Below are positions 413-27,837 of a DNA stretch of 32,831 bases, piece after piece. A program made the position numbers and the translations under genes. Location of the stretch: assembly GCA_965368225.1 (NCBI GenBank), contig CBDUMF010000002.1:1-32831 (forward strand), in the 5' to 3' direction. Below the pieces are notes generated by a model. That model searched no databases and was not told where the DNA came from. It was given only the letters and a program-made list of their open reading frames with translations. This DNA is from an uncultured Elusimicrobia bacterium. GTDB taxonomy: Bacteria > Elusimicrobiota > Elusimicrobia > Elusimicrobiales > UBA9959. Positions within the stretch are counted from its first letter, which is position 1; every line of letters starts with the position of its first letter.

Positions 413-1645
413 TTATTTAATTTCCGCTATATATTTTTTAAGAGCAGAACAGAAAATGTCAATATCCTCTTCTTTGCTGTATATGTAAAAGGAAAGCCGG
501 CCAATAGATTTGATTCCGGAATTCAGTGCGGTTAAATCCGCGCAATGTCTTCCGGTTCTTATTGCAATAAAATGCTCGTTTGAATAATTATTCAAATAGA
601 TATTAAAGTCCTCCAGAGAAAAATTTTTTTCTACCGGAGTAAAGGAAAGTATAGAACCTTTCTGCAGTTGTTCCAGATCTCCGATTATCCTGATTTCCCC
701 AAAGAGAGAAATTTTTTTATAAGCATACTTTATTACTCTGGCTATTTGTTCCCTTATTTTCTTAAAGCCAATTTTTTCTAGAACACGGAAGGATTCCGCC
801 AGTGCCACGGCCCCGGCGTAATTCTGTATGCCCGCTTCAAATGAAACGTTTCCGTCTATATATTCACAATAATATTTCCGGCCTCTTTTATAAATCTCCT
901 TCACTATGCCGCCTCCGACCTTAGCCCTGGCAAGCTCGGATAAAAGATCGCTCCTCACGTACAAAACTCCGGTTCCGTACGGCGCCCCCATCTTATGCCC
1001 GGAAAAAGCGGCAAAGTCGGTATTTATTCCTCTCATATCTTCCCTGTGACTGGGTATATACTGCGCCTCGTCCACAAAGACCTTAGCGCCGAAATCATGT
1101 GCCACATCTATGAATTTTTCCACATCAATGCTCGAACCGAAGACATTGCTCGCCCTTGTAATACACACAAGCGCGACTTTTTTGTTTATCATTTTCTTAA
1201 AAATTTCAAAATTCGGCAGACACCCTTTAAGCGGAATTATTCTCAATTTAACCCTTCCCGCGTTCTCAAGCTTAAGGAACGGAAGAAAAACACTGTTGTG
1301 TTCAAGGGGGGACAACAATACCTCTTTTCTTTCCCCGGAAAAAACGAATGCAGAGGCAAGTATATTAACTGCCTCGGTAGTTCCGCTTGTGAATATTATT
1401 TCTTCCGGGAAAGCGCCTATGCTTTGCGCTACGCAATTTCTGGCCTCTTCGTATTTTTGCCCGGCTTCCTGAGACAGGATATGAACGGATCTTTTGCCCG
1501 CGCAACCGCCGAAGTTCGCCAAAAACTTTCGTTCAGCACTGATAGAGGACGCCATCTTAAGAGCAGAGCAGGCGCTGTCAATGTAAATCATTTTTTTCCC
1601 GCGAAACCTTCTATTTAATGCAGGAAACTCTTTTTCTATATTCAT
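413..1645 (-). CDS. Cysteine desulfurase, SufS/CsdA-like (class V PLP-dependent aminotransferase fold)
   Basis: 410-aa ORF. PLP-lysine context FSGHKM and a group-II desulfurase active-site loop RTGRHCA near the C-terminus. Its ATG (1645) directly abuts the TGA of the upstream rSAM gene (1646-1648). Last gene of the operon. Confidence 0.8.
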   Translation of the reverse strand: MNIEKEFPALNRRFRGKKMIYIDSACSALKMASSISAERKFLANFGGCAGKRSVHILSQEAGQKYEEARNCVAQSIGAFPEEIIFTSGTTEAVNILASAFVFSGERKEVLLSPLEHNSVFLPFLKLENAGRVKLRIIPLKGCLPNFEIFKKMINKKVALVCITRASNVFGSSIDVEKFIDVAHDFGAKVFVDEAQYIPSHREDMRGINTDFAAFSGHKMGAPYGTGVLYVRSDLLSELARAKVGGGIVKEIYKRGRKYYCEYIDGNVSFEAGIQNYAGAVALAESFRVLEKIGFKKIREQIARVIKYAYKKISLFGEIRIIGDLEQLQKGSILSFTPVEKNFSLEDFNIYLNNYSNEHFIAIRTGRHCADLTALNSGIKSIGRLSFYIYSKEEDIDIFCSALKKYIAEIK

Positions 1646-2488
1646 TCAAAAAACCTTGTGAATTTTAAGATAATCTTTTCTGGGTCCATAACAGATATTA
1701 GCATATTTGCATTTAAAGCATTTTTTAACGTACGTTTTTTCTCTCTCCTGAGGTCCGGGAATCTTTAATTTCATTTTTGCAATATCCACATGATAACCAT
1801 AGTACCTGCCGAGCATACACGGTGGAATATGGTCTATTTCAAACTCAACTCCGCTTCTTTCAAGAATATAACAGGCTTTTGAAAGAAAACCGGAAACCGA
1901 AGAATATTTTGGAACTATTTTTCTGGTTCGGGCTTTTCCCATAGCCTTAACGAAGCTAAACTGAACCCAGCCAACCCGAGGGCCCATCTTTTCCTTCACA
2001 AACCTGGCAAAACTCGGCAAATACCTGTAATTTAATTCGCATATTATATGGGTTATCCTAACTGCAACTTCCAATTTAAGCAAAAGATTTACGCCGCTAA
2101 TTTTCCTGTAAAAAAAGTCCCTCTGCGTTATTTTCCTGTCAAGTTTCGGATTTGCGGCTGAAATATTCACATTGAAATAGCCACCACTTGCTTTGACGAT
2201 TCTTGCAATTTTTTTCAATGCCCCGGCATCGTATCCTTCAATTAAAGAAGCGTTTGTCTGAATCTCCACCTTTTTCTTATTTTTAAGACAGCACAGCAGT
2301 ATTTCAAGCAGAACCGCCGGTTTCGCCAAAAACGGTTCTCCTCCGGAAATCTGAACAAGTTTTTCCTTTGACCTCTTAATATCGTCAAAAATAGACGTGA
2401 CTTCGATTTTTCCCCTCTGCCGCTCCGGTTCAAAAGAACAAAAAACGCAGCTTTGATTGCACCTATTTTCAATTTTTATCAAACTCAT
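1646..2488 (-). CDS. Radical SAM enzyme, small paralog family with C-terminal CxxCx5C-G motif
   Basis: N-terminal CNQSCVFC (Cx3Cx2C) 9 residues after the Met, a GGEP motif, and C-terminal CFKCKYANICYG...DYLKIH. Confidence 0.85.
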   Translation of the reverse strand: MSLIKIENRCNQSCVFCSFEPERQRGKIEVTSIFDDIKRSKEKLVQISGGEPFLAKPAVLLEILLCCLKNKKKVEIQTNASLIEGYDAGALKKIARIVKASGGYFNVNISAANPKLDRKITQRDFFYRKISGVNLLLKLEVAVRITHIICELNYRYLPSFARFVKEKMGPRVGWVQFSFVKAMGKARTRKIVPKYSSVSGFLSKACYILERSGVEFEIDHIPPCMLGRYYGYHVDIAKMKLKIPGPQEREKTYVKKCFKCKYANICYGPRKDYLKIHKVF

Positions 2489-2597
2489 TTCTCAATTTTG
2501 ACTCCATGAGTTTTTTGCTCAAAGGTATCCTCAACGCCCAACCTGATTTAAAAACGCTCACCTTTTTTTCATACACCATTTGCGCTTGCCTGTCTTA

Positions 2598-2723
2598 TCA
2601 CCGCCTTTTCTTCTTGCCAGGCGGCAGGGTTATCTCAAACTTTTCCCAACCGGGAAGATAAACAACCTTGCGCACTTCCCTTCGCGCAAAATCCTCACTC
2701 AAGGGTTCAAAATAAACCTGCAT
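2598..2723 (-). CDS. Hypothetical small protein, 41 aa from the ATG. The open frame continues upstream to 2834, in frame with the TGA of the preceding rSAM gene
   Basis: My own translation of the 346-nt gap. 78 consecutive sense codons (2834..2601) follow TGA 2835-2837 and end at TGA 2598-2600. The only ATG is at 2723, preceded by GAGGG. It falls below the 60-aa cutoff of the ORF track. Confidence 0.3.
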   Translation of the reverse strand: MQVYFEPLSEDFARREVRKVVYLPGWEKFEITLPPGKKKRR

Positions 2724-2834
2724 AAAACCCTCATCCCTTTCACCAAAAAGACCGGAGAAGACTGGTTTATAAATATGAATTTTATAGTCGCCATTGACAA
2801 TTATTCTATCTAACCTGCCACCGGTAAAGTGCGC

Positions 2835-4013
2835 TCATTTGATCCTCCAGAAATACTTGCCTTTTTTAAAAAATTTCTCGACCCTGTTCTTTCTGATGAG
2901 ACTTTCTCCCGCGTTTATTACCGCGTTCCCATCCGAACAGTCACGACAAAGCGTAATTCCTCCGGCGATTTTCAGAACCTCTTTTGTGGAAGCGGGAGAT
3001 TGGATTCTAAGCACCTCAAGAAGGCACCTTTCATTATCGGAAAGGAATACTTCCTTTATTGGTTTTCCGGGAGTCTTGAATGTCTCTTTAACGGGATTAA
3101 ACCCTTCCTCACCGAATACTTGCAGATAATTAAAATCCACTCCCCCGCACCTGGCGAAATAAGCGCATTCAAAACATGCCTTGACTCTTTTTTTGTTTTC
3201 ATTCGAGCTCAAGTCAAGATCAGTTTTTATTCCCTCCGGATCTGTCACAAGGGTATTAAACCGGTCAAGACCTATGGAAAGCGATTCCCTTCCTCTGATA
3301 AAACAGGGAGGCACATTCAAAAAAAGAATCTCATTTGAAAGCCCTACCCTCTCCATTAAGTTTATTGAGTCTCTAAAGTATTTCTGGACGTCCGGAAGAG
3401 AGATCTTAAGTTTATCACTGTTTTTTTTCATATTTCCAATATAAAGAGGATATATAATCACAAAATTGCTTATGCCGTTTTTAAGAAAGAAATGGATTAT
3501 TTCCGGCAGGCGATTGTAATTATAGCGATTTACCAGTATATTTGTTCCTAACCTGATTTTCCATATTTTAAGATTTTCAAGTCCCCGCATCGCTTGTTTC
3601 CAGGCTCCTTTGTAAACGAGTAATTTATCGTGCACCTCGGCATTATCGCTTAAAAAACTAAACTTGCAAAAAGTCAGACCCGCCCTAACCAGCCTTTCGC
3701 AGAATTTCCCGCTTGAAAGCAAAATTCCATTTGTCTGGATTCTAATAAAACCAAAACCCACTTTTTTTGCCAGGGAAATTATTTTAACTATATCGGGTCT
3801 CAAAAGCGGCTCGCCTCCAGTAAAGCCAATTCTTCTATATCCCGCGGCGTAAGCGCGGTATATGTTTTCTGCTATTGACTCAAAAGAGGCGTTCAACCTC
3901 TTGTCAAATGAACCCTGAGAGCAAAATAAACATCTTGCATTGCAATTGTAATTAAGGATTATCTCATAGCACTTGAGGTTTTCCTTTCTTTCACCAGGTG
4001 TTTTCTTTTTCAT
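2835..4013 (-). CDS. Radical SAM enzyme of the same paralog family, with an extra C-terminal winged-helix-like domain
   Basis: CNARCLFC motif, GGEP, and CFECAYFARCGG...YLQVFGEEGFNPV, followed by ~90 extra residues (ERCLLEVLRIQSPASTKEVLKIAG...KKGKYFWRIK). I chose the start at ATG 4013 because it forms an ATGA overlap with the upstream stop at 4010-4012. The track's longer start at 4076 would overlap 67 nt. Confidence 0.8.
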   Translation of the reverse strand: MKKKTPGERKENLKCYEIILNYNCNARCLFCSQGSFDKRLNASFESIAENIYRAYAAGYRRIGFTGGEPLLRPDIVKIISLAKKVGFGFIRIQTNGILLSSGKFCERLVRAGLTFCKFSFLSDNAEVHDKLLVYKGAWKQAMRGLENLKIWKIRLGTNILVNRYNYNRLPEIIHFFLKNGISNFVIIYPLYIGNMKKNSDKLKISLPDVQKYFRDSINLMERVGLSNEILFLNVPPCFIRGRESLSIGLDRFNTLVTDPEGIKTDLDLSSNENKKRVKACFECAYFARCGGVDFNYLQVFGEEGFNPVKETFKTPGKPIKEVFLSDNERCLLEVLRIQSPASTKEVLKIAGGITLCRDCSDGNAVINAGESLIRKNRVEKFFKKGKYFWRIK

Positions 4014-5050
4014 TGGCAGGTTAACCCCCGGTTTTTTCGCAATTCGATATTGTGAACTTCGCAAAACGCCCTGCATGTTATTGCGCTTTTTATAAGAGAC
4101 ATGTATTCTTTTCTCATAACTTTGGCCAGTTTTTTGTGGGACGCAATGGCGCTGCGCAACCTTTCACCGCTTAACTTCATACAATAATGGAAATAAGCGA
4201 AGGCCCCGGCGGAACACAACAAGCTTCTCACCCCGGCTCCATACCTTCGAGCAACAGAAAAAAAAGAGTGCCTTTTTTCCGCGTCAATCCGTAAACTAAG
4301 AAATTTTTTCATACCCGTTTTATCTGCGGAAACGGCTTTATCACAAGGAATAAAATGCCCGCTGGGAAGCAGAATAATATTCGGGCAATAACGAGGATTA
4401 TAATCCTTGTCGAGGCATTCAAAAATCAGCTCGTATACATTTCCCATCTCATATACTTTGCCCCCGCCTCTGATAATTTCAAAATACCACTTTCTGATTT
4501 TCATCATTTCCCGCTGAATAATCCTGATGTCGGCATCGGGCCATATTTCTGTTATGTCAGGAGTCCACATAATATGCCTGAAGCCGAAATTGTATATCTC
4601 TTTCACGAGTCTTGAAACCTCGCCTATTTTCTCCCTGGTTGCCACAAACGAAGCTGTGGCTCCACGCCTGGCAGATTCCCTGAAAATTTTTCTTATCTCC
4701 TTCACTTCAAAAAAATTAAATTGATTGAGACTTAAAACAATCTTGATTCTTTTATCCTGTGCAAAAGCGGCAAAATCCTTCGTCAATTTCATTCCGTTGG
4801 TAAAGATATGAATCGGACAACTGCTTTTGCGTCGTACATGTTGCACAATAGAGACAAGAAGTTTTTTATGAAGTAGCGGCTCGCCGCCCAGGAAAGTTAT
4901 TTTGGCATCTCTGCCGTAAAGTTCCAAAAATCTATTAACCGCATAGAGCGCACTTTTCCTGCTCAGAACAACAGAGGTCCCGGAATTTCTAATATAACAG
5001 TACGGACATCTTAAATTGCAGATATAACTCATATAAATGACAAGATTCAT
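4010..5050 (-). CDS. Radical SAM enzyme, anSME-like N-terminus with a partial SPASM/twitch motif
   Basis: CNLRCPYC 11 residues from the Met, GGEPLL, and CPNIILLPSGHFIPC (C..Gx4C). There is no full CxxCx5Cx3C. ATGA overlaps occur at both ends. Confidence 0.8.
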   Translation of the reverse strand: MNLVIYMSYICNLRCPYCYIRNSGTSVVLSRKSALYAVNRFLELYGRDAKITFLGGEPLLHKKLLVSIVQHVRRKSSCPIHIFTNGMKLTKDFAAFAQDKRIKIVLSLNQFNFFEVKEIRKIFRESARRGATASFVATREKIGEVSRLVKEIYNFGFRHIMWTPDITEIWPDADIRIIQREMMKIRKWYFEIIRGGGKVYEMGNVYELIFECLDKDYNPRYCPNIILLPSGHFIPCDKAVSADKTGMKKFLSLRIDAEKRHSFFSVARRYGAGVRSLLCSAGAFAYFHYCMKLSGERLRSAIASHKKLAKVMRKEYMSLIKSAITCRAFCEVHNIELRKNRGLTCQ

Positions 5051-5973
5051 TTTATTGCCTTAAGTTCTCCGTCCCCGTAATGTTTAAGATACTCCGTCCA
5101 TATTCCCTCGCAGATATTGAAAAGGCGACAGCCGAAACATCTAGGCGTTTTCCTTCTTGAAACCATCTGCCTTGAAATCACCGCATCTGTATTTTTGAAA
5201 TCAGGCGCCCAGTGTTGCGTAAAAAACAGCACTCTTTCATTTATATCGCTTATATGGCTTAAATGGCGGTGGAAATAACACAGCGGCACATATCTCACCT
5301 TCCAACGAGGAAAACCGTTTCTATCTCCCACATTAAGGACCTTTCTCATATATAGCGCACATTCGGAAATTTTCGGCACCAGATTTTCAAAACAATCATG
5401 CGCTCCGCCATACGTCGGGTCAACAAAGATAAATTCCACATTTTTAATTCCATACTTTATGTAAAGACGACCTATTTCAGGAAGGTAGCGCATATTGCTT
5501 TTTACAACAGTAGTGTTTCCGTTTATATTCTTAAATCCTAACTTTCTCAAATTCTCTATGCCTTTGACCAATTCGGAGAAACTGCCCGGAACCCGCGTAA
5601 GACGATCGTGAACTTCGCAGTTGTGCCCGTGGATGGAAAAAATGATTCCGTCTATGCCGGCTTCCACTATCTGGCGGGCAAATCTTATATCTGAAAAAAT
5701 CCTGCCGTTAGTCGAGGTTAAAACTTCATTTATACCCAACTTTTTGGCCGTTCTTACCACGCAGGCAAAATCCCTTCTTATCGTAGACTCCCCCCCTATG
5801 ATTTCCACTATATCGGCTTTTTCTTTCTTCGCCTTGTAAAGTTCCCTCACTATCTCGGAAGTGGTTTTTTCCGGAAAATCCCTTTTCCTGGAATCAATGC
5901 AAAAAACGCACTTATTGTTGCATTTATATCCGGTGAATATCACTATCTTTTTCAATCTCGTTGGAGCATTCAT
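5047..5973 (-). CDS. Radical SAM enzyme, small paralog family
   Basis: CNNKCVFC and C-terminal CFGCRLFNICEGIWTEYLKHYGDGELKAI. ATGA overlap with the upstream membrane-protein gene. Confidence 0.85.
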   Translation of the reverse strand: MNAPTRLKKIVIFTGYKCNNKCVFCIDSRKRDFPEKTTSEIVRELYKAKKEKADIVEIIGGESTIRRDFACVVRTAKKLGINEVLTSTNGRIFSDIRFARQIVEAGIDGIIFSIHGHNCEVHDRLTRVPGSFSELVKGIENLRKLGFKNINGNTTVVKSNMRYLPEIGRLYIKYGIKNVEFIFVDPTYGGAHDCFENLVPKISECALYMRKVLNVGDRNGFPRWKVRYVPLCYFHRHLSHISDINERVLFFTQHWAPDFKNTDAVISRQMVSRRKTPRCFGCRLFNICEGIWTEYLKHYGDGELKAIK

Positions 5974-7133
5974 AAAATTCCAGTAAGACGAAGAATATCT
6001 TTATTAAAAAGCAACATCAGCAAAACGCCGGCGAATATCCACAACGCAAAGGGTCTGCCCTTTATCACTTCTATCTTTGGGTCCTTGACATTAAGCCGTG
6101 AAAGCCAGTCTTTGAGCAAATCAATATGCTCCTTGCAAAAGCCATCCCTGAAAACATCGTCAAACGCGCCTTGAAAAACCGGGTTCTGCTTCAATAAAAG
6201 AAGTGTGGAAGTTGAAGGTATCATACCAGGCCCTAGTTCGTCCTTTCCCACGAAATAGGCGTCTTTTTTCTCCATTATAAACTCTATCATAAACCTTCCG
6301 ACAAAAAGAATGACGCTAAACTTAAAGACGTTTACGACAGCACCTGTTAAATAATTTAAAAGACGGTATGGAAAGAAGAAGTATCCACATATGAAATAGA
6401 TTAAATAAACAATACCGGAAAAGTAAAGCCATTTACGGCTTCTGAAAATTCCACCTATTCTGTCCCACAGAAAGAACAAGAAAAAAAATATTAAATCCGT
6501 CCTCTTCATAACATGTTCCAGGAAGCCCTTAAATTCCATCACGAAAATCTGATGAAATAGAAACAACATGGAAAGATTGACCGCGCAGGCCAAAAACGCA
6601 AATCTTTTTTTTCCGCCGGCCCTGGCAAGGGCAGTGAACCTCTCCTTTATTCCATTCCATTCCTCGCTAAAAAAATCCGACGGTCCAACGCGATTTATTC
6701 CTTCAGAAATATAATTGATAACGGCATAAACAGACGCCACCACAAATATATTTATCAAAACGCTTAAAAACAGGTAGCCGGGAAAAGTTTTAATAAAAGG
6801 ATTTATCAGCGGGAGTGATAACGAGCACAATATGAAAAATTTAGCATCCCCTGCCGGCCAAATCTCTCCGTACCACAAAACAACAGCGGCAATCACCGTC
6901 AGGGCAAAATGCTGAAGGAAAAGAACATAGAAAATCGGGTTCAGAAAATCCGAAACTCTGCCGTTTAAGCCGAGATAGGTGTTGACGCCTGACAGAAGCA
7001 TGGCGGCTATAAAAATCCTGGCTCCAAGCACCGTTCTTTTGTTAAATATTTTCCTGAATTCAAAATCCTCCTTGACCACGGCTACACACCATCCCAGAAA
7101 AAAAATCAAATAAGTCAGGGATATATATTTCAC
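5970..7133 (-). CDS. Polytopic membrane protein (~10 TM) with A24 prepilin-peptidase/CpaA-like aspartate motifs
   Basis: 387-aa hydrophobic ORF. D23 lies in KEDFEFRKIFN (compare the D-x5-I-P-N of the CpaA/TadV/FlaK type). D96 lies in WPAGDAKFF (compare G-x-G-D-x-K-L/F). GTG start forms a GTGA overlap with the upstream stop. Confidence 0.55.
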   Translation of the reverse strand: MKYISLTYLIFFLGWCVAVVKEDFEFRKIFNKRTVLGARIFIAAMLLSGVNTYLGLNGRVSDFLNPIFYVLFLQHFALTVIAAVVLWYGEIWPAGDAKFFILCSLSLPLINPFIKTFPGYLFLSVLINIFVVASVYAVINYISEGINRVGPSDFFSEEWNGIKERFTALARAGGKKRFAFLACAVNLSMLFLFHQIFVMEFKGFLEHVMKRTDLIFFFLFFLWDRIGGIFRSRKWLYFSGIVYLIYFICGYFFFPYRLLNYLTGAVVNVFKFSVILFVGRFMIEFIMEKKDAYFVGKDELGPGMIPSTSTLLLLKQNPVFQGAFDDVFRDGFCKEHIDLLKDWLSRLNVKDPKIEVIKGRPFALWIFAGVLLMLLFNKDILRLTGIL

Positions 7134-8020
7134 TTTGAGACCGCCTTGATCTCCGCGTCCCCGAAGAATTTATAATATTCTCTCATAAGACCCAGACAAT
7201 TTTTTCTTAACACGCATCCCCGGCATTTTTTCGTATAAATTCTTTCCTCTTTCGGCAAAGTAACCCAGGCATACCTGCGCAACACTGGAGGAAGAACGCA
7301 CAGAGGAAAATGATAAAGGCGAAATTCTTTAAACCGCTTTATGAAATTCAGATTTTTCATTATCGCAAAAGAAGAGTCTTCGAACCTGAGCGCTATTTTT
7401 TGACGGTTTTCAAAAGAGATGCCCTCTATTTCGTAATGTATCACCACCACTCTGTAGTCGCGGGCAGCAGCCAGTTTTTTCAGAAGCATTTTTACCAGGT
7501 CTCCGAAATCGGATATATTCTGTTTTATGAGGACTACTCTTATTTCCGTTTTTTGACCCCGGGAAAAGCGGAAGATATTTTTCAGGCCCTCCAGCGTTCT
7601 ATGAAAACTGCCTTTCGCTCCGCTTATCCTGTCATGCTTTGCCGCAGTTGAACCATGGATTGAAACTGCTATTTCAAAGGGAGGATTAGCTATGGCGAAA
7701 AATTTTTTTGCAAATTCTTGGTCAGCGAATTTTTTTCCGTTGGTTAAAAGGGTAACCTGAACATCTGGAACCCTTTTTCTAAGGTATGCAACAAATTTTA
7801 AAAAATCCGGATGAAGAGTGGGCTCTCCTCCGGTCAAACTTATATAGGAAGATTTATCAGCATTTTTATGGTAAACATCTTCCCCTTTCAGGTATTTCTC
7901 GAATTTCTTTATCTGCCATTTTAGCGAATACTGCCGGGGGTTTTGCAAAACGAACGAGCGCATATTGGTGCACATTATGCATTTATTATCGCATTTATTC
8001 CAAACGGCTATATCCGGCAT
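7130..8020 (-). CDS. Radical SAM enzyme, small paralog family
   Basis: CDNKCIMC and C-terminal CRGCVLRKNCLGLMREYYKFFGDAEIKAV. The track start at 8104 is a TTG overlapping the upstream gene by 71 nt. ATG 8020 (MPDIAVWNKCDNKC) gives the N-terminal length seen in the paralogs. Start is uncertain. Confidence 0.75.
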   Translation of the reverse strand: MPDIAVWNKCDNKCIMCTNMRSFVLQNPRQYSLKWQIKKFEKYLKGEDVYHKNADKSSYISLTGGEPTLHPDFLKFVAYLRKRVPDVQVTLLTNGKKFADQEFAKKFFAIANPPFEIAVSIHGSTAAKHDRISGAKGSFHRTLEGLKNIFRFSRGQKTEIRVVLIKQNISDFGDLVKMLLKKLAAARDYRVVVIHYEIEGISFENRQKIALRFEDSSFAIMKNLNFIKRFKEFRLYHFPLCVLPPVLRRYAWVTLPKEERIYTKKCRGCVLRKNCLGLMREYYKFFGDAEIKAVSK

Positions 8021-8033
8021 AGTCAGGCCAAAA

Positions 8034-9497
8034 TCAAAATTTCTCTCTGCTCTTTCTTCTTTCAGCGATACCTTCGCCCCCTGTTGACTCAAACCATGAT
8101 TCAAAAATTTTTCTATTTTTGCGGTCCTGGAGTCTTTCCGTCAAAACCTTAAAAATCCCCTTTTGCACACCACACCAATAGGAATTCCTCAAATTCCCCC
8201 ACGGAGTTTTTTGCTCCTCGTAATTATGAACCGGGCACACCCCGCAAAAAGGCTTGAAAGCACACCTGAAGCATTCGGGCTGATTCTCCAGACAGGAGGT
8301 TATTACGCACAGCTTTGAGGGGGCGCTTGCGACTACATCCGCATAAGAATGGTCCCTCACATTCCCCAACCTAAAGGAAAAATCCCTGCGGGCGCCCACC
8401 ATTCTTCCCTCATCGCAGGTGTAAACATCCCCATTCCAATTATAGGCAATCTGTCCTATAGCAGCTCCGCAGGGAGAACGCAAATCAAGATAATTCGGAT
8501 CTCTTCCAAAAAGCATTTTTTGAAGAATAATCGCCGCTGTTCGCTCGATAAATTTTTCGCCCCTTGAATTTATTTTCAGGCAATAATCCAACGCCCTTTT
8601 ATAAAAGAAAACAAAATCCTCTGCTCTATATCCAATTCTGGAGAAAACCTGCTTAGCGTATCCCACAGGGGAAAGGGGTCTTATAAAAATACCCCCCAAA
8701 CCCAGAGCACGATATTCATCTACTATCTCCCGGGGATAATCCAGCGAATATTTGGTCGTAGTCATCAAGGCAGAAGGCAGAGAGTCTTTTCTTCCCCTGT
8801 TCTTTTCGGAATAATCTGCGAAACGCTTCAGCCAGTTAACCGTAATATCGTAGGAGGAGCCACCGAAGTAAATTCTATTTCTATTGTGAACTTCTCTCGG
8901 TCCGTCAAGGGAGGTGCATACCGAAATCCGATTTTTATTGAGAAATTCAAACTTTCTTTCATCTAACAAGGTAAAATTGGTAACGACCGAAATTTCAAGA
9001 TTCTTGCCAAGACTTCGGTTCTTTCTCAAGGCGTAGTCAACCGTTTTTTTAAGCGTCCGCCAGTTTATCAGGGATTCTCCTCCCTGAAATTCTATGGTGA
9101 TATTTTTGTTTGGGGAGGACAAAGCCATGTCAACACATTTTCTGGCAGTTTCTTCGTTCATATCTGTATTTTTGAAATCCGCTCCCAGAGCACGGCAGTA
9201 AACGCAACGGTGATTGCATTTAAGGGTGAGAACAAAAATGTGAAGAGACGGCCCGTTTTCTCCAGGAGGATTTAAATCTTTAACCGCTGAAACTGCTTTT
9301 CCAAAATCGAGATGGGTTGAGAAAAAACCTTTCTTTTTCAGCTTGCGGGCTAAAGACGGTTTTTTATCAAATTTCCCGTTTTTGACCAAATCAAATTCCG
9401 AGGGTTCCAAAATCATCCAATTTCCAAAATCGTTGGAAATGAAAACCCCTTTTTCGGTCTTTTCAAAATTAAAATTTAAAAGTTTGTCTCTTTGCAT
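8034..9497 (-). CDS. Radical SAM/SPASM peptide maturase, HxsB-like (anSME type)
   Basis: CNHRCVYC. Full SPASM cysteine set: CGAAIGQIAYNWNGDVYTC, CFRCAFKPFCGVC and a final WCG. Collinear paralog of 12685-14097 and 19657-21099. Confidence 0.8.
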   Translation of the reverse strand: MQRDKLLNFNFEKTEKGVFISNDFGNWMILEPSEFDLVKNGKFDKKPSLARKLKKKGFFSTHLDFGKAVSAVKDLNPPGENGPSLHIFVLTLKCNHRCVYCRALGADFKNTDMNEETARKCVDMALSSPNKNITIEFQGGESLINWRTLKKTVDYALRKNRSLGKNLEISVVTNFTLLDERKFEFLNKNRISVCTSLDGPREVHNRNRIYFGGSSYDITVNWLKRFADYSEKNRGRKDSLPSALMTTTKYSLDYPREIVDEYRALGLGGIFIRPLSPVGYAKQVFSRIGYRAEDFVFFYKRALDYCLKINSRGEKFIERTAAIILQKMLFGRDPNYLDLRSPCGAAIGQIAYNWNGDVYTCDEGRMVGARRDFSFRLGNVRDHSYADVVASAPSKLCVITSCLENQPECFRCAFKPFCGVCPVHNYEEQKTPWGNLRNSYWCGVQKGIFKVLTERLQDRKNRKIFESWFESTGGEGIAERRKSREKF

Positions 9498-11766
9498 TGT
9501 TTTTTAATATCGGTCTTATCTCTCCTGAGCCGAACGTTTTCAAATAATCAGATGCCGCGCCCGCGCAATTAAGCAAAAACCTGCATTCATACTCAAAACT
9601 CATCTTGACCAGTTCATCCCCATACTGCGATTCGCGGGCATCTCCCCTGTCTTCGGGCAGAAGAACATCTGCAGCCATATCATGCTCTGGATAAAGAAAG
9701 CAAAGCGGTATATTCAATGTTTTTATGGATACATCCCCGGAAAGCGCCAAAGAAGCTTTTTTCACCGCTCTGGCGGCGGCTGTGTATGTAACGCGTAAAC
9801 TGCGTTTATTTTGAGAGTTTTTTTCAAAATTACCCGTATAGCGGGGAAACCACAAAATAAATTTTTTCACTTGATACTCGCCGAAATATCTTATCGTTGC
9901 AGTCAGAGTGTTTAAATTCAGACCCGTAAGAACGACAACCACGGTAAGGTCAATCCCCGCTTTTTTAAGATTTTCCAGCGCTTTTAAAGAAAGAGGCAAT
10001 TGCCTGCCCGTGCCAAAAAGTTCGGCATTTATCCTGTAATCGCGACTCGCCGTTTTCAGAAAAACAGAATTCAAACCAGCATTTTTAAGGAAGAGAAGGT
10101 AGTTATGATCGGCCAGCTTCATTCCGTTGGTAAGAATGGTTCTCTGAATAAACCCACTTCTTTTCGCCAACTTCAGAAAAAACCCGAGGTCCGCAGAAAC
10201 CGTCGGTTCGCCGCCCGCGAAAAGTATATTGTTAAAAAATTTTTTCGCCCGACACATATTTAGCGCCGCAACATTTCTGTTCAAAATGCCGCCCCTGTAA
10301 GAATTGGGGCAAAACAAGCAATTCAGGTTGCACCGTCCGCCGAACTGAAATTCATAAACGCTTGCTGAAAGACGATTGAAAAGAGGATTTGAAACAACGG
10401 GGAACTTTTTCTGCGCGCTTGATTTAATCTGAGAACGATATTTCCTTTCAAGAACCTTAGTTGTCCTGGCTTCAAAAAACTCTTTTTTTATCTCAAAAGC
10501 AGCTTCCTCCCTTTGCAGGACGGCATACGCCGGGCCGATGTCGGAGAGTATTTTCTTCCGTGAAAGATTCTTAATCTCTTTTCCAAAAACGGACTCAATA
10601 TTTTTCCCGAAGCGCGTTCTGAAATCTTTTTTGGGAATTCTTCCCCGGTGAAGCGTCTCAAGCAACACAAAGTTTATCATTTCGTCTTTCATGCTCAAAC
10701 CAACAAACTTTTCAATAGGATACTTTCCGCGTAAAAGCGCTTGCTCATATTTATACTCATCGCAGATATTCTGATATCTTGCCTCTCGTACGGCGTATGA
10801 AACCGCGCTGGGCCCGAGTCCCAAAATGGAATAGGATCCTTCTTCGCCCTGGTCATAACTGTATGGCCATTGATTGCCTTTCCTCTTATAGACCCAATGC
10901 CCACAGCGCATGATATATCCCGAAGAGGTAAGAATTTCAAGAGCCCTTCTTCTAAACCTCCGCGCCTCCTCCTTCGCCGCGCCGGATAAGGAGCCTTTCT
11001 TTTCCTCAAAAGCGCACTGATATCTTGGCTGAAAATCGAATATATAAATCCTTTCCAGATCCAGTTCCGCTATTTTTTTCACGTCTGCGATAAAACTTTC
11101 ATAGCCCTGATGCGGCAGACCGCACATTAAGTCCGCCTCAACCTGCTTTATGCCGATTTTCTTTGCCTTCTTCAAAATTTCAAGAGCGCGCTCTCCGTTC
11201 TGCACCCGATTATGCCTTTTCATCAATTTATCGTCAAGACTCTGAATTCCGACTGCAAGCCAGTGAACATTATTTTTCTTCAGCGTTCTAAGTTTCTCTT
11301 CTGTAAGTGTGGAGGGACTGGCTTCAAAAGCGATTTTGGTCCCAGAGGAAATATTGAAATTGGCCCTCGCAATTTTAAAAAACTCATCCAGGTCTTCAGT
11401 ATTCATAAGGCTTGGAGTGCCTCCTCCAACGCAAAAGTACCTTATTTTCCTCCCCCTGAAAGCGGATTTCATTAAACGCGCCTCCATCTCATATGCGCGC
11501 AGGAAATTTTTTATCTCTTTCCTTAAGCAGGGGACTTTCTTGTAAAACCCGCAGAAAGAGCATTCGCTCGGGCAAAAGGGGAAATGCACATACACGACAG
11601 GCTCGTTCGAATGCTTTTTGAGCGACCTGTTCCACAATTTCGTCAAATCAACGCCCTCGTTAAATCTTCCCCACGCCGCCATCGGAGGATAATTTGGCGG
11701 AAACTCGGGCAAAGTGTCGGCATCGCATTTTGAAAATAATTCCCTTAAAACTTCGTCTTTTATCAT
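9469..11766 (-). CDS. Fusion protein with two radical SAM domains: N-terminal HemN-like (class C rSAM methyltransferase/coproporphyrinogen-dehydrogenase-like) plus C-terminal small-paralog-family rSAM
   Basis: First cluster motif CPSECSFC with GGGTPS and a HemN_C-like segment (MKDEMINFVLLETLHRG...). Second motif CNLNCLFC with GGEPT and C-terminal CRFLLNCAG..DYLKTFGSGEIRPI. I chose the start at ATG 11766 (MIKDEVL..PPNYPPMAAW, which aligns with the N-terminus of 16586-17941), 1 nt after the upstream stop. Confidence 0.8.
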   Translation of the reverse strand: MIKDEVLRELFSKCDADTLPEFPPNYPPMAAWGRFNEGVDLTKLWNRSLKKHSNEPVVYVHFPFCPSECSFCGFYKKVPCLRKEIKNFLRAYEMEARLMKSAFRGRKIRYFCVGGGTPSLMNTEDLDEFFKIARANFNISSGTKIAFEASPSTLTEEKLRTLKKNNVHWLAVGIQSLDDKLMKRHNRVQNGERALEILKKAKKIGIKQVEADLMCGLPHQGYESFIADVKKIAELDLERIYIFDFQPRYQCAFEEKKGSLSGAAKEEARRFRRRALEILTSSGYIMRCGHWVYKRKGNQWPYSYDQGEEGSYSILGLGPSAVSYAVREARYQNICDEYKYEQALLRGKYPIEKFVGLSMKDEMINFVLLETLHRGRIPKKDFRTRFGKNIESVFGKEIKNLSRKKILSDIGPAYAVLQREEAAFEIKKEFFEARTTKVLERKYRSQIKSSAQKKFPVVSNPLFNRLSASVYEFQFGGRCNLNCLFCPNSYRGGILNRNVAALNMCRAKKFFNNILFAGGEPTVSADLGFFLKLAKRSGFIQRTILTNGMKLADHNYLLFLKNAGLNSVFLKTASRDYRINAELFGTGRQLPLSLKALENLKKAGIDLTVVVVLTGLNLNTLTATIRYFGEYQVKKFILWFPRYTGNFEKNSQNKRSLRVTYTAAARAVKKASLALSGDVSIKTLNIPLCFLYPEHDMAADVLLPEDRGDARESQYGDELVKMSFEYECRFLLNCAGAASDYLKTFGSGEIRPILKNNAKRQTFKF

Positions 11767-11767
11767 A

Positions 11768-12667
11768 TCACCCGCTTTTAACCGGCTTAAATTCCGACCA
11801 GCCGTAAATTTGCGGATATTCCCGCCACGGCCCCTCGCAAACATTAAAATAAGCGCATTTAGTGCACTTTTTGTGCTTGACCTTTCCCTCACTCCTGCGA
11901 TAATCCCCATAATTTTCCACATATACGTTCGCATCGACCACGGGCCCTTCAGGAATTATTCTCTCGGCCACGCACTGCTCATATCCCTTCATAAAACAAT
12001 AAGGAATGGCTTCCGTAAAACATAAAGTTTTGTTCCCAACACCTATGTCAAGTGCCCTGCGCACGTAGGGCATTATTTCGCTTTTCCTTGGAACTATCCA
12101 TTTTCTGTTTTTAAAAGCGGTCCCTATAATGTGAACAAACGCTAATTGAAACTGATCCACTTTAAGATACACAAGCAATTTGGCGAGTTCCGGAAGGTCC
12201 TTGTAATTGGCTGAAGTTATAACTGTATTCGTCAAAACATACATACCGAGCTTTTTACAATTCATTATCCCCTTCACCACCTGAGCGAAACTTCCCCTGG
12301 AATGCGTGAGACTTTCATGTATCTTGGCCCTTGAACCATGAAGAGAAGGCCCCATTTCGTTCACTCCGGCTTTCTTCAACTTAAGGCAATAATCGTAATA
12401 GGCAAACCTCCTTCCGTTTGTCTGAACCTGAATACTGGAAAAGCCCAATTTCTTTGCCTCTTTCACCGCTTCGATAAGATTCGGATGCAGAGTCGGTTCT
12501 CCACCGGTAAACACGACTCCGTTTATTTTTTTTGCTGCAGCGTCCTTTAAAATCTTTTTTATTTCCGAAAGTGGCCTGCGCTTTATTATGGAACGTTTGT
12601 CTCCCTGAGCGCAAAAATCGCAGCGATTATTGCAGTCAAATCCTATTTTAACATCTATTCTCTTCAT
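11768..12667 (-). CDS. Radical SAM enzyme, small paralog family
   Basis: CNNRCDFC and C-terminal CTKCAYFNVCEGPWREYPQIYGWSEFKPV. ATG 12667 is preferred over GTG 12724, which would overlap the upstream gene by 40 nt. Confidence 0.8.
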   Translation of the reverse strand: MKRIDVKIGFDCNNRCDFCAQGDKRSIIKRRPLSEIKKILKDAAAKKINGVVFTGGEPTLHPNLIEAVKEAKKLGFSSIQVQTNGRRFAYYDYCLKLKKAGVNEMGPSLHGSRAKIHESLTHSRGSFAQVVKGIMNCKKLGMYVLTNTVITSANYKDLPELAKLLVYLKVDQFQLAFVHIIGTAFKNRKWIVPRKSEIMPYVRRALDIGVGNKTLCFTEAIPYCFMKGYEQCVAERIIPEGPVVDANVYVENYGDYRRSEGKVKHKKCTKCAYFNVCEGPWREYPQIYGWSEFKPVKSG

Positions 12668-12684
12668 TGTCGAATTATACCGAA

Positions 12685-14097
12685 TCAAGATTCGTGAAGC
12701 GAAAGCCACTTTTTGAATATCCACATCGTTTCTCTGCTGTCAAGTTTTCGGCACAGCAATTTGAAAATTCCTCTGTAAATTTTACATCTGTCGTTCACAA
12801 TCATATTCCCCCAGAATGAATTCTGTGAGGACAGGTTCAACGCCGGCATTGCGTGGCAATAGGGATTCCAGGCACATCTGGAACACCTCACCTGATTAAG
12901 AAAATTGAAATTACTCAGAAGAAGAAGTTTGGAAAGCGGCCTGTTCAAGATGTCCTTGAAGGAATCTCTTTCAACACTGCCCAATTTAAGAGTTTCTTCA
13001 CCTGAGTTGGCGATCATTCTCGCTTCGTCACTTCCATATATTCCTCCATCCCAATTATACGCCAGACGCATGAGTAAATCTAAATTATGATATCTCGGGC
13101 GCTGGTAATTAAGCATATGACTGAGAAACAAAAAGGCACCTTTTTCATAAACGCCTATGCCTTTTTTATTGAGGGAAATAATATAATCCAGGGCCCTTTC
13201 GTAAAAAGACAAAAATTCCTCCGGCAAGTAACCGACTTTGTTCCAATGCGTTTTGGCCCTGCCGGTTTTATCCAGAGGTCCTACCTGAATTCGCACCAGA
13301 CCAAGGCGAAGATATTCATCCACTATTTCTTTGGGATAATTAAGCGAAAATCTGCTTATCGTGCATATTGCGTTCGGTTTTTCAAATTTCTTTTTAATGG
13401 CAAGAGCATTTATCCGTCCCAGCCATCTGACCGCTGCTTCGTAAGACGAACCTTTCAAGAGTTTTCTGTTAAGGTCGTGAATGAATTTAGGACCATCAAG
13501 CGAAGAGCAGACGACAACCCTGTTTGCCAACAGGAATTTTAAAATTTTCCCATCCATGACGGAGAGATTGCTTACTATGGAAAAACTTAACTCCTTTCCC
13601 TCCTTCTCACCGCGCTTCTTTGCCTTTTCAACTATATATTTCACAGCTCTAAAATTCAAGAGCGGTTCCCCTCCCTGAAACTCTATCATTATTTTCTTGT
13701 TCGGGACTGAAAAGATAAAATCAAGGGTTTTCCTGGCTGTTTCCAACGTCATGTCGCTTTCAAGCGGGCGAAACGGTCCGGCCGAGGCTCCGCAATAAGA
13801 ACAAAACGAATTGCATCTCTTTGTAACGCTGATTATATGAACATGAGGTCCTTTCCAGTCCATGAAAAAATTTCGCCGTAAACATTTCGCCGCCCTATCC
13901 ATGTCCAGATAGTCGGAAAAAAACATTCCTTTTTTCAAGCATTGTTTTGCTTTTTCTCCAACACTTTCGCCATTCACAAAAGACCTGAAATCCACACTGC
14001 TCAAAGAACAATTGAAGGAAAAAATGTTAGAGATAAAATATCTCTCTCTTATCTTCGCGAAATTAAAATCCATGGGTTTGGCGGGCGTTTTTTTCAT
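12685..14097 (-). CDS. Radical SAM enzyme, HxsB-like paralog with a degenerate SPASM domain
   Basis: CNSFCSYC. Collinear with the other two HxsB-like proteins but lacks the CGAA Cys, has YGSDEAR in place of YTCDEGR, and has CSRCAWNPYCHAM in place of C..C.....CGVC. ATGA overlap with the upstream gene. Confidence 0.8.
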   Translation of the reverse strand: MKKTPAKPMDFNFAKIRERYFISNIFSFNCSLSSVDFRSFVNGESVGEKAKQCLKKGMFFSDYLDMDRAAKCLRRNFFMDWKGPHVHIISVTKRCNSFCSYCGASAGPFRPLESDMTLETARKTLDFIFSVPNKKIMIEFQGGEPLLNFRAVKYIVEKAKKRGEKEGKELSFSIVSNLSVMDGKILKFLLANRVVVCSSLDGPKFIHDLNRKLLKGSSYEAAVRWLGRINALAIKKKFEKPNAICTISRFSLNYPKEIVDEYLRLGLVRIQVGPLDKTGRAKTHWNKVGYLPEEFLSFYERALDYIISLNKKGIGVYEKGAFLFLSHMLNYQRPRYHNLDLLMRLAYNWDGGIYGSDEARMIANSGEETLKLGSVERDSFKDILNRPLSKLLLLSNFNFLNQVRCSRCAWNPYCHAMPALNLSSQNSFWGNMIVNDRCKIYRGIFKLLCRKLDSRETMWIFKKWLSLHES

Positions 14098-15185: not shown

Positions 15186-15188
15186 AAT

Positions 15189-16256: not shown

Positions 16257-16348
16257 AAAAACCTCTGTATGGCGGGAAAGTTTTGTTTTGGTAAAACAGT
16301 TCTCCCGGAAAGCATTCTAAAAAACCAGATTTATTCTGCAAATAACGT

Positions 16349-27817: not shown

Positions 27818-27837
27818 TTTTTTGTACAATTACTAAT

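What the first reader, a model, noticed from the sequence alone, without database searches (positions are those of the whole stretch)
5970..7133. Membrane protein with both catalytic-Asp motifs of A24 prepilin-type peptidases embedded in the rSAM operon
- The 387-aa, ~10-TM protein has D23 in DFEFRKIFN, matching the D-x5-I-P-N pattern of CpaA/TadV/FlaK-type peptidases.
- It has D96 in PAGDAKF, matching the G-x-G-D-x-K-(L/F) pattern.
- The 73-residue spacing is comparable to that of small A24 peptidases.
- It is translationally coupled (GTGA and ATGA overlaps) to rSAM genes on both sides.
- A24 enzymes remove short, positively charged leaders that precede a hydrophobic segment.
- The HxsA-like peptide has that general layout: a KKKNDKKRKNR leader, Gly26, then a hydrophobic stretch.
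- This protein could therefore be the missing leader peptidase and membrane-handling step. If so, it would be a new pairing of class III signal-peptide processing with RiPP-like maturation.
Basis: inference. Interest (0 to 1): 0.65.

Follow-up and report, generated by a model that had tools for sequence, protein, structure and literature searches.

The report
Flp-type leader peptidase inside rSAM cluster
This membrane protein is a previously undescribed relative of the small peptidases that trim Flp pilin precursors, built into a giant radical-SAM peptide-maturation gene cluster whose His-x-Ser repeat peptide carries a pilin-like leader, so it is a strong candidate for the unknown leader-cutting step of such systems.

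Summary
Window 5970-7133 (-) encodes a 387-aa protein with about 10 TM helices, D23 and WPAGD96AKF, joined by GTGA and ATGA overlaps to rSAM genes on both sides.

The window protein does not hit Pfam A24 on its own. Its family does: it has 890 clusters at 50% identity and 259 GTDB species, almost all Elusimicrobiota.
- 35 of 70 diverse members hit PF01478.
- A family profile matches CpaA/TadV-type Flp prepilin peptidases (hhalign 95.7%, E 1e-8; shuffles give at most 17.7 against 55.4).
- That alignment pairs D23 and D96 with the two catalytic Asp.
- D23, D96 and K98 are invariant.

In 86 loci the gene is flanked by HxsC-type rSAM genes.

The HxsA-like peptide has an invariant F-L-x-S-E-E-G/A motif before a hydrophobic segment. 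Real Flp prepilins share F(-7), L(-6), E(-3) and G(-1).

Most likely the protein is a dedicated leader peptidase cutting after G26. This is inferred, not shown.
- Asp juxtaposition could not be measured.
- Foldseek found no match.
- An AxA signal-peptidase site follows the hydrophobic segment.
- A second conserved protein family ('TYYP') is a rival substrate.

I found no description of this pairing.

The parts
5970..7133 (-). 387-aa polytopic membrane protein: CpaA/TadV-related A24-superfamily aspartyl peptidase with a C-terminal extension
   Evidence: ORF. Homologues. Family-level PF01478 hits. hhalign against CpaA/TadV at 95.7%, E 1e-8. AF2 pLDDT 86.
6684..7133 (-). A24-like core, residues 1-150: five TM helices (2-26, 31-56, 66-88, 94-110, 121-149)
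   Evidence: AF2 model of residues 1-150 with pLDDT 92.9. This is the region that PF01478 matches in homologues and that hhalign aligns to CpaA.
7041..7067 (-). Motif 1, D23-F-E-F-R-K-I-F-N31 (family consensus D-L-A-T-x-K-I-P-N); D23 is the putative first catalytic Asp
   Evidence: D23 is invariant in A1 and A2. It aligns to D24 of CpaA D-x3-R-R-V-P-N.
6834..6860 (-). Motif 2, W92-P-A-G-D96-A-K-F-F100; D96 is the putative second catalytic Asp (GxGD-type)
   Evidence: W92, A94, G95 and A97 are nearly invariant; D96 and K98 are invariant. The motif aligns to CpaA M-G-A-G-D85-V-K-F-F.
6069..6683 (-). Family-specific insertion, residues 151-355: amphipathic helix, about four more TM helices and a soluble alpha/beta domain (292-357). 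Absent from CpaA/TadV.
   Evidence: AF2 secondary structure. No Pfam match. CpaA proteins are 160-190 aa.
5973..6068 (-). Last TM helix with R-P-F362-A-L-W-I-F-A-G369, the counterpart of the PilD F-G-P-x-L-A / CpaA I-P-Y-A-A-Y-L-A helix
   Evidence: F362 and G369 are invariant. hhalign aligns the helix to the GspO FGPWLALG and CpaA IPYAAYLA helices.
7130..8104 (-). HxsC-like radical SAM gene; its stop overlaps the peptidase start (GTGA). The true start is probably ATG at 8020.
   Evidence: TIGR03977 gives 171 bits, below the cut-off of 268. This type is the upstream neighbour in 55 of 86 loci. Overlap read.
5047..5973 (-). HxsC4-like radical SAM gene; its start overlaps the peptidase stop (ATGA)
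   Evidence: NF038332 gives 150 bits, below the cut-off. This type is the downstream neighbour in 55 of 86 loci. Overlap read.
17944..18228 (-). HxsA-like 94-aa precursor: basic leader, F-L-S-S-E-E-G26, hydrophobic segment, A-Y-A56, seven H-x-S repeats, ARGGWC
   Evidence: NCBIfam HxsA3/HxsA4 hits are below threshold. Alignment A6.
18151..18171 (-). Flp-like leader motif F20-L-S-S-E-E-G26; proposed cleavage after G26
   Evidence: F20, L21, S23, E24 and E25 are invariant; position 26 is G in 15 and A in 2 of 17. Flp prepilins have F(-7), L/A(-6), E(-3), G(-1). hhalign P 0.0011, with 0 of 100 shuffles reaching the score.
18085..18132 (-). Hydrophobic segment I33-L48 of the HxsA-like peptide
   Evidence: Kyte-Doolittle maximum of 1.77 over residues 33-47. 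Conserved as VKTGxALGIxG.
17965..18030 (-). H-x-S repeat tract (H67-H88)
19657..21099 (-). HxsB radical SAM/SPASM maturase. Two paralogues lie at 8034-9497 and 12685-14097.
   Evidence: TIGR03978 scores of 488, 473 and 372 bits against a cut-off of 370.
21071..21520 (-). HxsD-like small protein. A second copy lies at 19370-19675.
   Evidence: TIGR03976 scores of 50.0 bits (cut-off 50) and 36 bits.
21533..22330 (-). 'TYYP' protein that heads the cluster: N-terminal basic and hydrophobic segment, invariant S-E, T-L-T-T-Y-Y-P-x-P-Y-G-G-Y, and a C-terminal CC motif. It is an alternative candidate substrate.
413..21099 (-). Extent of the co-directional cluster: 13 radical SAM genes, 2 HxsD, a Cys-rich membrane protein, the HxsA-like gene, the peptidase and a SufS-like cysteine desulfurase. 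One HemN-like gene (16586-17941) lies on the + strand.

Best explanation
The ORF encodes an inner-membrane aspartyl endopeptidase of the A24 superfamily. Its closest relatives are the small CpaA/TadV enzymes that cut Flp prepilins. It keeps their five-helix core, both catalytic Asp motifs and the last helix. Between TM5 and the last helix it carries a ~200-residue insertion of extra TM helices plus a soluble domain.

It is a fixed component of an expanded His-Xaa-Ser-type radical SAM cluster, not of a pilus locus.

Proposed mechanism:
1. The HxsA-like peptide has a lysine-rich leader ending in the invariant F-L-x-S-E-E-G, followed by a hydrophobic segment.
2. The peptide inserts N-in through that segment.
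3. The peptidase active site lies at the cytoplasmic membrane face and cuts after G26, as TadV cuts after the Gly of F-L-K-D-E-S-G in Flp.
4. The H-x-S repeat part is the presumed target of the HxsB/HxsC-type enzymes and ends outside the membrane. An AxA site (A-Y-A56) could then let signal peptidase I release it.

Shown: the ORF, the motifs and their invariance, homology to CpaA/TadV, gene linkage, and the leader motif with its likeness to Flp leaders.
Inferred: catalysis, topology, substrate identity, cut site and order of events.
For: Homology:
- Family profile against CpaA/TadV gives hhalign 95.7%, E 1e-8 over 112 columns, and 94.3%, E 1e-7 for the full profile.
- D23 aligns to CpaA D24, and A-G-D96-A-K-F-F aligns to G-A-G-D85-V-K-F-F. 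Controls score 7-18 against 55.4.
- PF01478 is the only recurrent Pfam family, hit by 35 of 70 members and covered end to end.
- D23, D96 and K98 are invariant at ~20% mean identity.

Topology:
- The basic loops after TM1 and TM5 place both Asp at the cytoplasmic face. This is read from the sequence plus the AF2 helices.

Linkage:
- The upstream neighbour is an rSAM gene in 82 of 86 loci and the downstream neighbour in 78 of 86.
- The HxsA-like gene lies immediately upstream in L072, L085/L187 and L167.
- The HxsA-like gene and the peptidase gene also lie in the same cluster in MAGs labelled Omnitrophota and Deltaproteobacteria.

Leader:
- F-L-x-S-E-E is invariant and the next residue is G/A.
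- The motif has the same register as four real Flp prepilins. The hhalign score of 19.7 compares with shuffles of 9.3 +/- 1.8, and 0 of 100 shuffles reach it.
- Among ~14,000 ORFs of the fetched loci, 47 of the 55 with a relaxed leader motif plus a hydrophobic stretch are HxsA-like.

Literature:
- Canonical HxsA undergoes N-terminal processing that is not ordinary signal-peptide removal, and the protease is unknown (PMC13128918).
Against: - The window protein itself has no Pfam or NCBIfam hit.
- There is no significant similarity to PilD/GspO-type A24 enzymes or to any solved structure by sequence or Foldseek.
- The D23-D96 distance in the model could not be read.
- After G26 come six largely charged residues (K-M-L-D-S-D), not an immediately hydrophobic +1 to +20 stretch with E5.
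- The hydrophobic segment is followed by AxA-type sites, so the N-terminus also reads as a Sec signal with a long n-region. The F-L-x-S-E-E-G motif could instead be the recognition element for HxsB/HxsD.
- Pfam Flp_Fap does not hit the peptide.
- About 21 clusters of types A and B have the peptidase but no HxsA-like gene in the cluster. Three such genomes do carry one elsewhere.
- No Tad or pilus assembly genes are present.
Confidence: 0.5

Rival explanations
1. The enzyme is the same, but the substrate is different or additional: the 'TYYP' proteins that head the cluster, and perhaps the Cys-rich membrane protein. These proteins share a conserved N-terminal membrane segment (…T-R-R-K-A-L-x-L-L-x-x-F-F-L-C-W-H-P-G-F-L-G-S-E…) that would act as a dedicated sorting signal.
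For: - TYYP-HxsD-HxsB-HxsD precedes the peptidase module in 34 of 86 loci. These include every compact cluster that lacks HxsA.
- 52 of 80 peptidase-bearing assemblies also appear in the truncated TYYP list.
- The hydrophobic segment is unusually conserved. S-E is near-invariant and E is present in 84 of 84 N-termini.
- Several paralogues per genome share only the N-terminal ~100 residues.
Against: - There is no conserved Gly or Ala on the cytoplasmic side of the hydrophobic segment. The conserved G-S-E lies on its far, predicted periplasmic, side, where an A24-type active site should not reach.
- There is no likeness to Flp or pilin leaders.
- In the Cys-rich protein the residue after MKK is W, G, Y or A, so it is not conserved.
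- Co-occurrence within one phylum is not independent evidence.
Confidence: 0.2
2. The protein is a non-proteolytic membrane component. It would act as a scaffold, an export channel or a docking platform for the flanking rSAM enzymes, having kept the A24 fold.
For: - It has a large family-specific insertion with a soluble domain.
- It is translationally coupled to rSAM genes on both sides.
- In canonical HXS, processing depends on HxsB/C/D themselves (PMC13128918).
Against: - Both catalytic Asp and the Lys of G-D-x-K are strictly invariant across 70 members at ~20% identity. That is the expected pattern for retained catalysis.
Confidence: 0.12
3. The protein is the cell's ordinary Flp or type IV prepilin peptidase and merely lies in this operon.
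For: - NCBI names two homologues 'prepilin peptidase'.
- The closest characterised relatives are CpaA/TadV.
Against: - The rSAM-peptidase-rSAM arrangement is conserved in more than 80 species with overlapping reading frames.
- No pilin, ATPase, platform or secretin gene lies in the window or in the flanks examined.
- The architecture, at twice the length of CpaA, is unique to this context.
Confidence: 0.05
4. The motif matches are chance features of a hydrophobic protein, and there is no relationship to A24.
For: - The protein has no direct Pfam or NCBIfam hit.
- Foldseek finds nothing.
Against: - Profile-profile E is 1e-8 with correct motif register, and the shuffle and reversal controls are clean.
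- 35 of 70 members hit PF01478 and no other family recurs.
Confidence: 0.03

Closest known systems
CpaA/TadV Flp prepilin peptidases (MEROPS A24, Pfam PF01478; e.g. the Ralstonia 'peptidase' next to an Flp pilin gene, L172:2687-3238)
   Same: - Five-helix core.
- D-x5-[IV]-P-N and A-G-D-x-K-F-F motifs in the same register.
- A last helix with a conserved aromatic/Pro motif.
- No N-terminal methyltransferase domain.
- hhalign 95.7%, E 1e-8.
   Different: - Twice as long, with a ~200-residue insertion (extra TM helices plus a soluble domain) before the last helix.
- The first G of G-x-G-D is P, A or S.
- Never found next to tad or cpa pilus genes, but always between radical SAM genes.
- The presumed substrate is an H-x-S repeat peptide rather than a pilin.
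PilD/GspO type IV prepilin peptidases
   Same: - The two Asp motifs and the F-G-P helix align in the expected order.
   Different: - The similarity is not significant: P 0.006-0.07, and HMM searches are negative both ways.
- There is no Cys-rich N-methyltransferase domain (PF06750).
Flp family type IVb prepilins (as the comparison for the HxsA-like N-terminus)
   Same: - A basic leader ending F-[LA]-x-x-E-x-G, followed by a hydrophobic segment.
- F(-7), L(-6), E(-3) and G(-1) are identical.
   Different: - There is no A-T-A-I-E-Y-G mature N-terminus. Six polar residues separate the Gly from the hydrophobic segment.
- An AxA site and an H-x-S repeat tail follow.
- There is no Pfam Flp_Fap hit.
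Canonical four-gene HXS antiphage system HxsD-HxsB-HxsC-HxsA (PMC13128918)
   Same: - HxsB above the curated cut-off, HxsD, HxsC-like enzymes and an H-x-S repeat protein.
- N-terminal processing of HxsA is part of maturation in that system.
   Different: - 99.7% of canonical systems are in Pseudomonadota, and 99.8% have four genes and no peptidase.
- Here there are 13 rSAM genes, three HxsB, two HxsD, a 94-aa HxsA without a peptidoglycan-binding domain, a TYYP protein and a dedicated A24-like gene.
- The cluster sits in a conserved chromosomal position (PhoH/BamA on one side; M20 peptidase and OTCase on the other in relatives). This suggests a housekeeping cluster rather than a mobile defence island.
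FlaK/PibD archaeal preflagellin peptidases
   Same: - General layout: a TM core with two Asp, a soluble domain before the last TM helix (from knowledge of PDB 3S0X), and one member with a weak PF06819 hit.
   Different: - No sequence or Foldseek match.

Membership tests
Peptidase A24 (PF01478) | The protein itself matches the family HMM | tested here: not met
   There is no PF01478 hit for the window protein even at E<=10, and no NCBIfam family.
Peptidase A24 (PF01478) | Homology shown at family or profile level | tested here: met
   17/40 and 35/70 full-length homologues hit PF01478, with a best E of 1.4e-7 and profile positions 2-100 of 104 covered. hhalign against CpaA/TadV gives 94-96%, E 1e-7 to 1e-8. 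Controls are clean.
Peptidase A24 (PF01478) | Two catalytic Asp: one after TM1 (D-x5-[ILV]-P-[ND]) and one in G-x-G-D-x-K-[LF] | tested here: met
   D23, D96 and K98 are invariant and align to the CpaA Asp residues. Two deviations: P30 is F in this protein, and the first G of the second motif is P.
Peptidase A24 (PF01478) | Both Asp at the same (cytoplasmic) membrane face and close in space | tested here: inconclusive
   The same face is inferred from the AF2 helices and the positive-inside rule. The distance could not be measured because model coordinates are not exposed. A covariation attempt failed.
Peptidase A24 (PF01478) | Fold like a solved A24 enzyme (FlaK) | tested here: inconclusive
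   Foldseek on the full-length and on the 1-150 models finds nothing at E<=0.001. E. coli GspO also finds no PDB relative by sequence, so the test has little power.
Peptidase A24 (PF01478) | Substrate with a class III (prepilin-type) signal: basic leader, Gly at -1, hydrophobic segment | tested here: inconclusive
   The HxsA-like leader matches Flp leaders at -7, -6, -3 and -1. However, the +1 to +6 residues are polar and an AxA site follows.
Peptidase A24 (PF01478) | Genomic association with type IV filament genes (pilins, ATPase, platform) | tested here: not met
   There are none in the window or in the gene tables of related loci.
Peptidase A24 (PF01478) | Endopeptidase activity dependent on the two Asp | not testable with these tools
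   This needs expression, D23A and D96A mutants, and N-terminal mapping.
His-Xaa-Ser (HXS) system | HxsB radical SAM/SPASM maturase | tested here: met
   Three copies score above the TIGR03978 cut-off: 488, 473 and 372 bits against 370.
His-Xaa-Ser (HXS) system | HxsA protein with H-x-S repeats | tested here: inconclusive
   Seven H-x-S repeats are present. The HxsA3 and HxsA4 models score only 26-27 bits against cut-offs of 55-65.
His-Xaa-Ser (HXS) system | HxsC radical SAM partner and HxsD | tested here: inconclusive
   The best HxsC match is 171 bits against 268. HxsD scores 50.0 against 50, and the second copy 36.
His-Xaa-Ser (HXS) system | Four-gene D-B-C-A architecture | tested here: not met
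   The cluster holds about 20 genes, 13 of them rSAM genes. The canonical architecture is described in PMC13128918.

The most novel reading that the evidence does not exclude
A Flp-type (class III) leader and a TadV-like peptidase have been taken out of pilus biogenesis. They now serve as the leader-removal and membrane hand-over step for radical-SAM-modified H-x-S repeat peptides. This would be a pilus-independent use of prepilin processing in RiPP-like maturation. It may also point to the unidentified protease behind the non-canonical N-terminal processing of HxsA in HXS antiphage systems.
Probability: 0.4. Interest if true: 0.78.

Novelty: new variant of a known kind. Interest (0 to 1): 0.66.

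Why it matters
- A24 peptidases are known only as processing enzymes of type IV filament subunits and a few archaeal class III signal proteins. A subfamily fixed inside a radical SAM peptide-maturation cluster, paired with a repeat peptide that carries a Flp-like leader, would extend both fields. It would give RiPP-like systems a new kind of leader peptidase acting at the membrane.
- It would also give a concrete, testable candidate for the processing step that the 2026 HXS study left unexplained.
- The same work defines a phylum-wide Elusimicrobiota cluster of 13 rSAM genes, the TYYP proteins and the peptidase, whose product and role are unknown.

Tried and rejected
Searches that found nothing:
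- Direct Pfam and NCBIfam scans of the protein gave nothing.
- PDB profile searches with A1 and A2 gave only spurious TM or designed-protein hits.
- Comparison with PilD/GspO-type A24 enzymes was weak: hhalign P 0.006-0.57, a PilD HMM against all locus ORFs was negative, and the reverse HMM gave P of 1e-3 to 1e-5. Only the CpaA/TadV comparison was decisive.
- Mean-field DCA on 254 family members, meant to infer TM1-TM4 contacts, was dominated by gap artefacts and was abandoned.
- PADLOC gave only generic rSAM/viperin similarity for the neighbours.
- Rfam found nothing in the window.
- Pfam Flp_Fap does not hit HxsA-like peptides; the Collagen hits are repeat artefacts.

Ideas tested and dropped:
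- The Cys-rich 365-aa protein looked prepilin-like (MKKKG-IIIIVG), but the Gly is not conserved.
This was later weakened by finding HxsA-like genes elsewhere in three of those genomes.
Full report
**Observation**

The ORF at 5970-7133 (-) starts with GTG and encodes 387 aa. Its start agrees with the aligned N-termini of homologues. D23 lies in E-D-F-E-F-R-K-I-F-N and D96 in W-P-A-G-D-A-K-F-F, 73 residues apart. The 4-base overlaps with the flanking genes were read directly: GTGA at 7130-7133 and ATGA at 5970-5973. Both neighbours are radical SAM proteins of the HxsC and HxsC4 kind, though below NCBIfam's cut-offs. AlphaFold2 with 40 homologues gives a confident model (pLDDT 86, pTM 0.80) with about ten membrane helices and a small alpha/beta domain at residues 292-357.

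**Is it an A24 peptidase?**

The protein itself hits nothing in Pfam, apart from a weak sub-threshold match to a TM-helix family (E 0.022), and nothing in NCBIfam. Its family gives a different answer.

- A word-indexed search found 184 homologues, all from Elusimicrobia MAGs. NCBI names two of them 'prepilin peptidase'.
- An exhaustive profile search found 890 cluster representatives at E<=1e-3 and 425 at E<=1e-10, mostly 375-550 aa.
- In 70 diverse members with ~20% mean identity, D23, W87, D96, K98, F362 and G369 are invariant.
- PF01478 is the only Pfam family hit repeatedly. It is hit by 17 of 40 close members and 35 of 70 diverse members, with a best E of 1.4e-7. It covers nearly the whole profile on residues ~11-135.

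Comparison with proteobacterial PilD/GspO was not significant, although the Asp motifs and the last helix aligned in order.

I then fetched real Flp pilin genes from plasmids. Beside one of them lay a Ralstonia TadV-type peptidase. I built a 35-member CpaA/TadV alignment from it.

- The family profile matches this alignment with 95.7% probability and E 1e-8 over 112 columns.
- The full-length profile gives 94.3% and E 1e-7.
- D23 aligns to the Asp of D-x3-R-R-V-P-N. A-G-D96-A-K-F-F aligns to G-A-G-D-V-K-F-F.
- The reversed alignment scores 12.0 and twenty column shuffles score 7-18, against 55.4 for the real alignment.

Homology to the Flp-prepilin-peptidase branch of A24 is therefore established at family level.

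Structure-based tests gave nothing. Foldseek found no match for either model, and PDB sequence searches do not reach FlaK even from GspO. I could not read model coordinates, so the Asp-Asp distance remains untested. A covariation attempt failed. The basic loops after TM1 and TM5 place both Asp at the cytoplasmic face. That is an inference.

**Context**

I examined 86 loci: 80 from GTDB species representatives, five of the six first fetched through homologues (L003 duplicates L022), and the window itself. All but one of the 80 GTDB loci are labelled Elusimicrobiota, Elusimicrobia, or simply 'bacterium'.

- The gene upstream of the peptidase is a radical SAM gene in 82 loci. The gene downstream is one in 78, and the rest are contig ends.
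- The common core is HxsC-like, peptidase, HxsC4-like, one to three further rSAM genes, then a SufS-like desulfurase.
- Upstream usually lie a 'TYYP' protein, HxsD, HxsB and HxsD.
- Expanded versions such as the window add a Cys-rich membrane protein, the HxsA-like gene, two more HxsB genes and HemN-like genes.
- No pilus genes occur in the window or in the gene tables examined.

The cluster sits in a conserved position near PhoH and BamA, and in relatives near an M20 peptidase and OTCase. This points to vertical inheritance rather than a mobile island.

**Substrate**

Seventeen HxsA-like peptides from very divergent clusters share an invariant F-L-x-S-E-E. The next residue is G in 15 and A in 2. 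A conserved hydrophobic segment (V-K-T-G-x-A-L-G-I-x-G) follows, then an AxA-like site, an H-(T/S)-N-Y motif and the H-x-S repeats.

Four real Flp prepilins read (R/K)-F-(L/A)-(K/R)-(D/N)-E-x-G|A-T-A-I-E-Y-G-L-I. F(-7), L(-6), E(-3) and G(-1) therefore coincide.

- hhalign puts G26 on the Flp cleavage Gly with P 0.0011.
- None of 100 column shuffles reaches the real score of 19.7; the shuffles average 9.3 +/- 1.8.
- A relaxed form of the motif plus a hydrophobic stretch picks 55 ORFs out of ~14,000 in all fetched loci, and 47 of them are HxsA-like.
- HxsA-like genes lie immediately upstream of the peptidase gene in L072, L085/L187 and the 469-aa variant L167.
- The HxsA-like gene and the peptidase gene also lie in the same cluster in MAGs labelled Omnitrophota and Deltaproteobacteria.
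- An archaeal-labelled contig carries F-L-I-E-E-R-G in the same register.

Several points count against the assignment.

- The six residues after G26 are polar.
- The AxA site makes the N-terminus read equally well as a Sec signal with a long n-region.
- The motif could be what HxsB or HxsD recognise.
- Flp_Fap is not hit.
- About 21 compact clusters lack an HxsA-like gene.

**Rival substrate**

The TYYP family is a rival substrate. It has 219 relatives in GTDB genomes, and all 78 loci kept by the scan are from MAGs labelled Elusimicrobia/Elusimicrobiota or simply 'bacterium'. It heads the cluster and has a remarkably conserved N-terminal membrane segment and an invariant S-E before T-L-T-T-Y-Y-P-A-P-Y-G-G-Y. 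Several paralogues per genome share only this N-terminal module. Its conserved residues lie on the far side of the hydrophobic segment, where an A24 active site should not reach. I therefore rank it second.

**Literature**

The canonical four-gene HXS system is an antiphage defence in which HxsA is N-terminally processed in an HxsB/C/D-dependent, non-canonical way. The protease was not identified. 99.7% of these systems are in Pseudomonadota and 99.8% have four genes (PMC13128918). Méheust et al. noted large rSAM suites in groundwater Elusimicrobia but no peptidase (10.1101/765248). Searches for an A24 or prepilin peptidase paired with rSAM/RiPP systems, and for HxsA3 or HxsC4, found nothing relevant.

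**Verdict**

The protein is a new, architecturally distinct branch of the CpaA/TadV-type A24 peptidases, dedicated to an expanded Hxs-like rSAM cluster. That it removes the Flp-like leader of the HxsA-like peptide after G26 is the best-supported mechanism, at about 0.5 confidence. It still needs a direct test.

Noticed in passing
window 21533-22330 (-); L003:6178-6867; 86 N-termini across the loci: The 'TYYP' protein family has no Pfam or NCBIfam match. It starts with a basic N-terminus and a conserved hydrophobic segment (F-F-L-C-W-H-P-G-F-L-G), then an invariant S-E, then T-L-T-L-T-T-Y-Y-P-A-P-Y-G-G-Y. Tail-fibre-like G-x-V-G-I-G-T...L-D-V repeats follow, and the protein ends in a C-terminal C-C-(R/K). 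The scan found 219 relatives in GTDB genomes; all 78 loci kept are from MAGs labelled Elusimicrobia/Elusimicrobiota or simply 'bacterium'. Several paralogues per genome share only the N-terminal ~100 residues, which looks like a sorting module.
   Followed up: partly
window 413-22330: The cluster is very large: 13 radical SAM genes (14 rSAM domains), comprising three HxsB, five to six HxsC/HxsC4-like, two HemN-like (one fused to a second rSAM domain, 9469-11934) and two PapB-like. It also holds two HxsD genes and a SufS-like cysteine desulfurase. It is conserved across Elusimicrobiota in compact and expanded forms, and its product is unknown.
   Followed up: partly
window 18212-19309 (-): A 365-aa protein has an N-terminal membrane anchor, a Cys-rich middle region and a K/E-rich C-terminal tail. 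It has no family match. It always lies just upstream of the HxsA-like gene, and here the two genes overlap by 17 nt.
   Followed up: partly
window 17944-18030 (-) and alignment A6: HxsA-like peptides end in one of two conserved C-termini, A-R-G-G-W-C or G-(Q/S)-W/Y, after the H-x-S repeats. They also share an H-(T/S)-N-Y motif just after the AxA site.
   Followed up: no
window 8020-8104: The listed TTG start at 8104 of the HxsC-like gene overlaps the HxsB gene upstream by 71 nt. Homologues are 293-298 aa, so the ATG at 8020 (M29), giving 296 aa, is the likelier start.
   Followed up: partly
window 16586-17941 (+): A HemN-like rSAM gene is the only + strand gene inside the cluster. The same inversion is seen in related loci L004, L008, L010 and L036.
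   Followed up: no
L006:7985-8632: In one relative the protein upstream of the peptidase module is a 215-aa secreted protein made of A-Y-C-(K/R)-(N/D)-A-(E/K)-A-G-(F/Y)-G-A-C-V repeats. It may be a different rSAM substrate.
   Followed up: no
L188, L193, L194: HxsA-like genes with the F-L-x-x-E-x-G leader occur in MAGs labelled Deltaproteobacteria and Omnitrophota, both with the peptidase gene nearby. One also occurs on a short contig labelled Candidatus Iainarchaeum. Binning errors are not excluded.
   Followed up: partly
L001, L002, L005, L003: Some relatives add U32-peptidase-like genes, tetrapyrrole-methylase-like genes and B12-binding rSAM genes next to the cluster. L084 comes from Elusimicrobia bacterium GWF2_62_30, one of the MAGs for which Méheust et al. 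report B12-binding-domain rSAM genes near a nitrogenase paralogue.
   Followed up: no
window 25226-32734 (+): An ordinary outer-membrane and lipid A block lies here, identified by reading the translations only: BamA, Skp-like, LpxD, LpxC, FabZ, LpxA and LpxI-like. It fits a diderm Elusimicrobiota genome.
   Followed up: no
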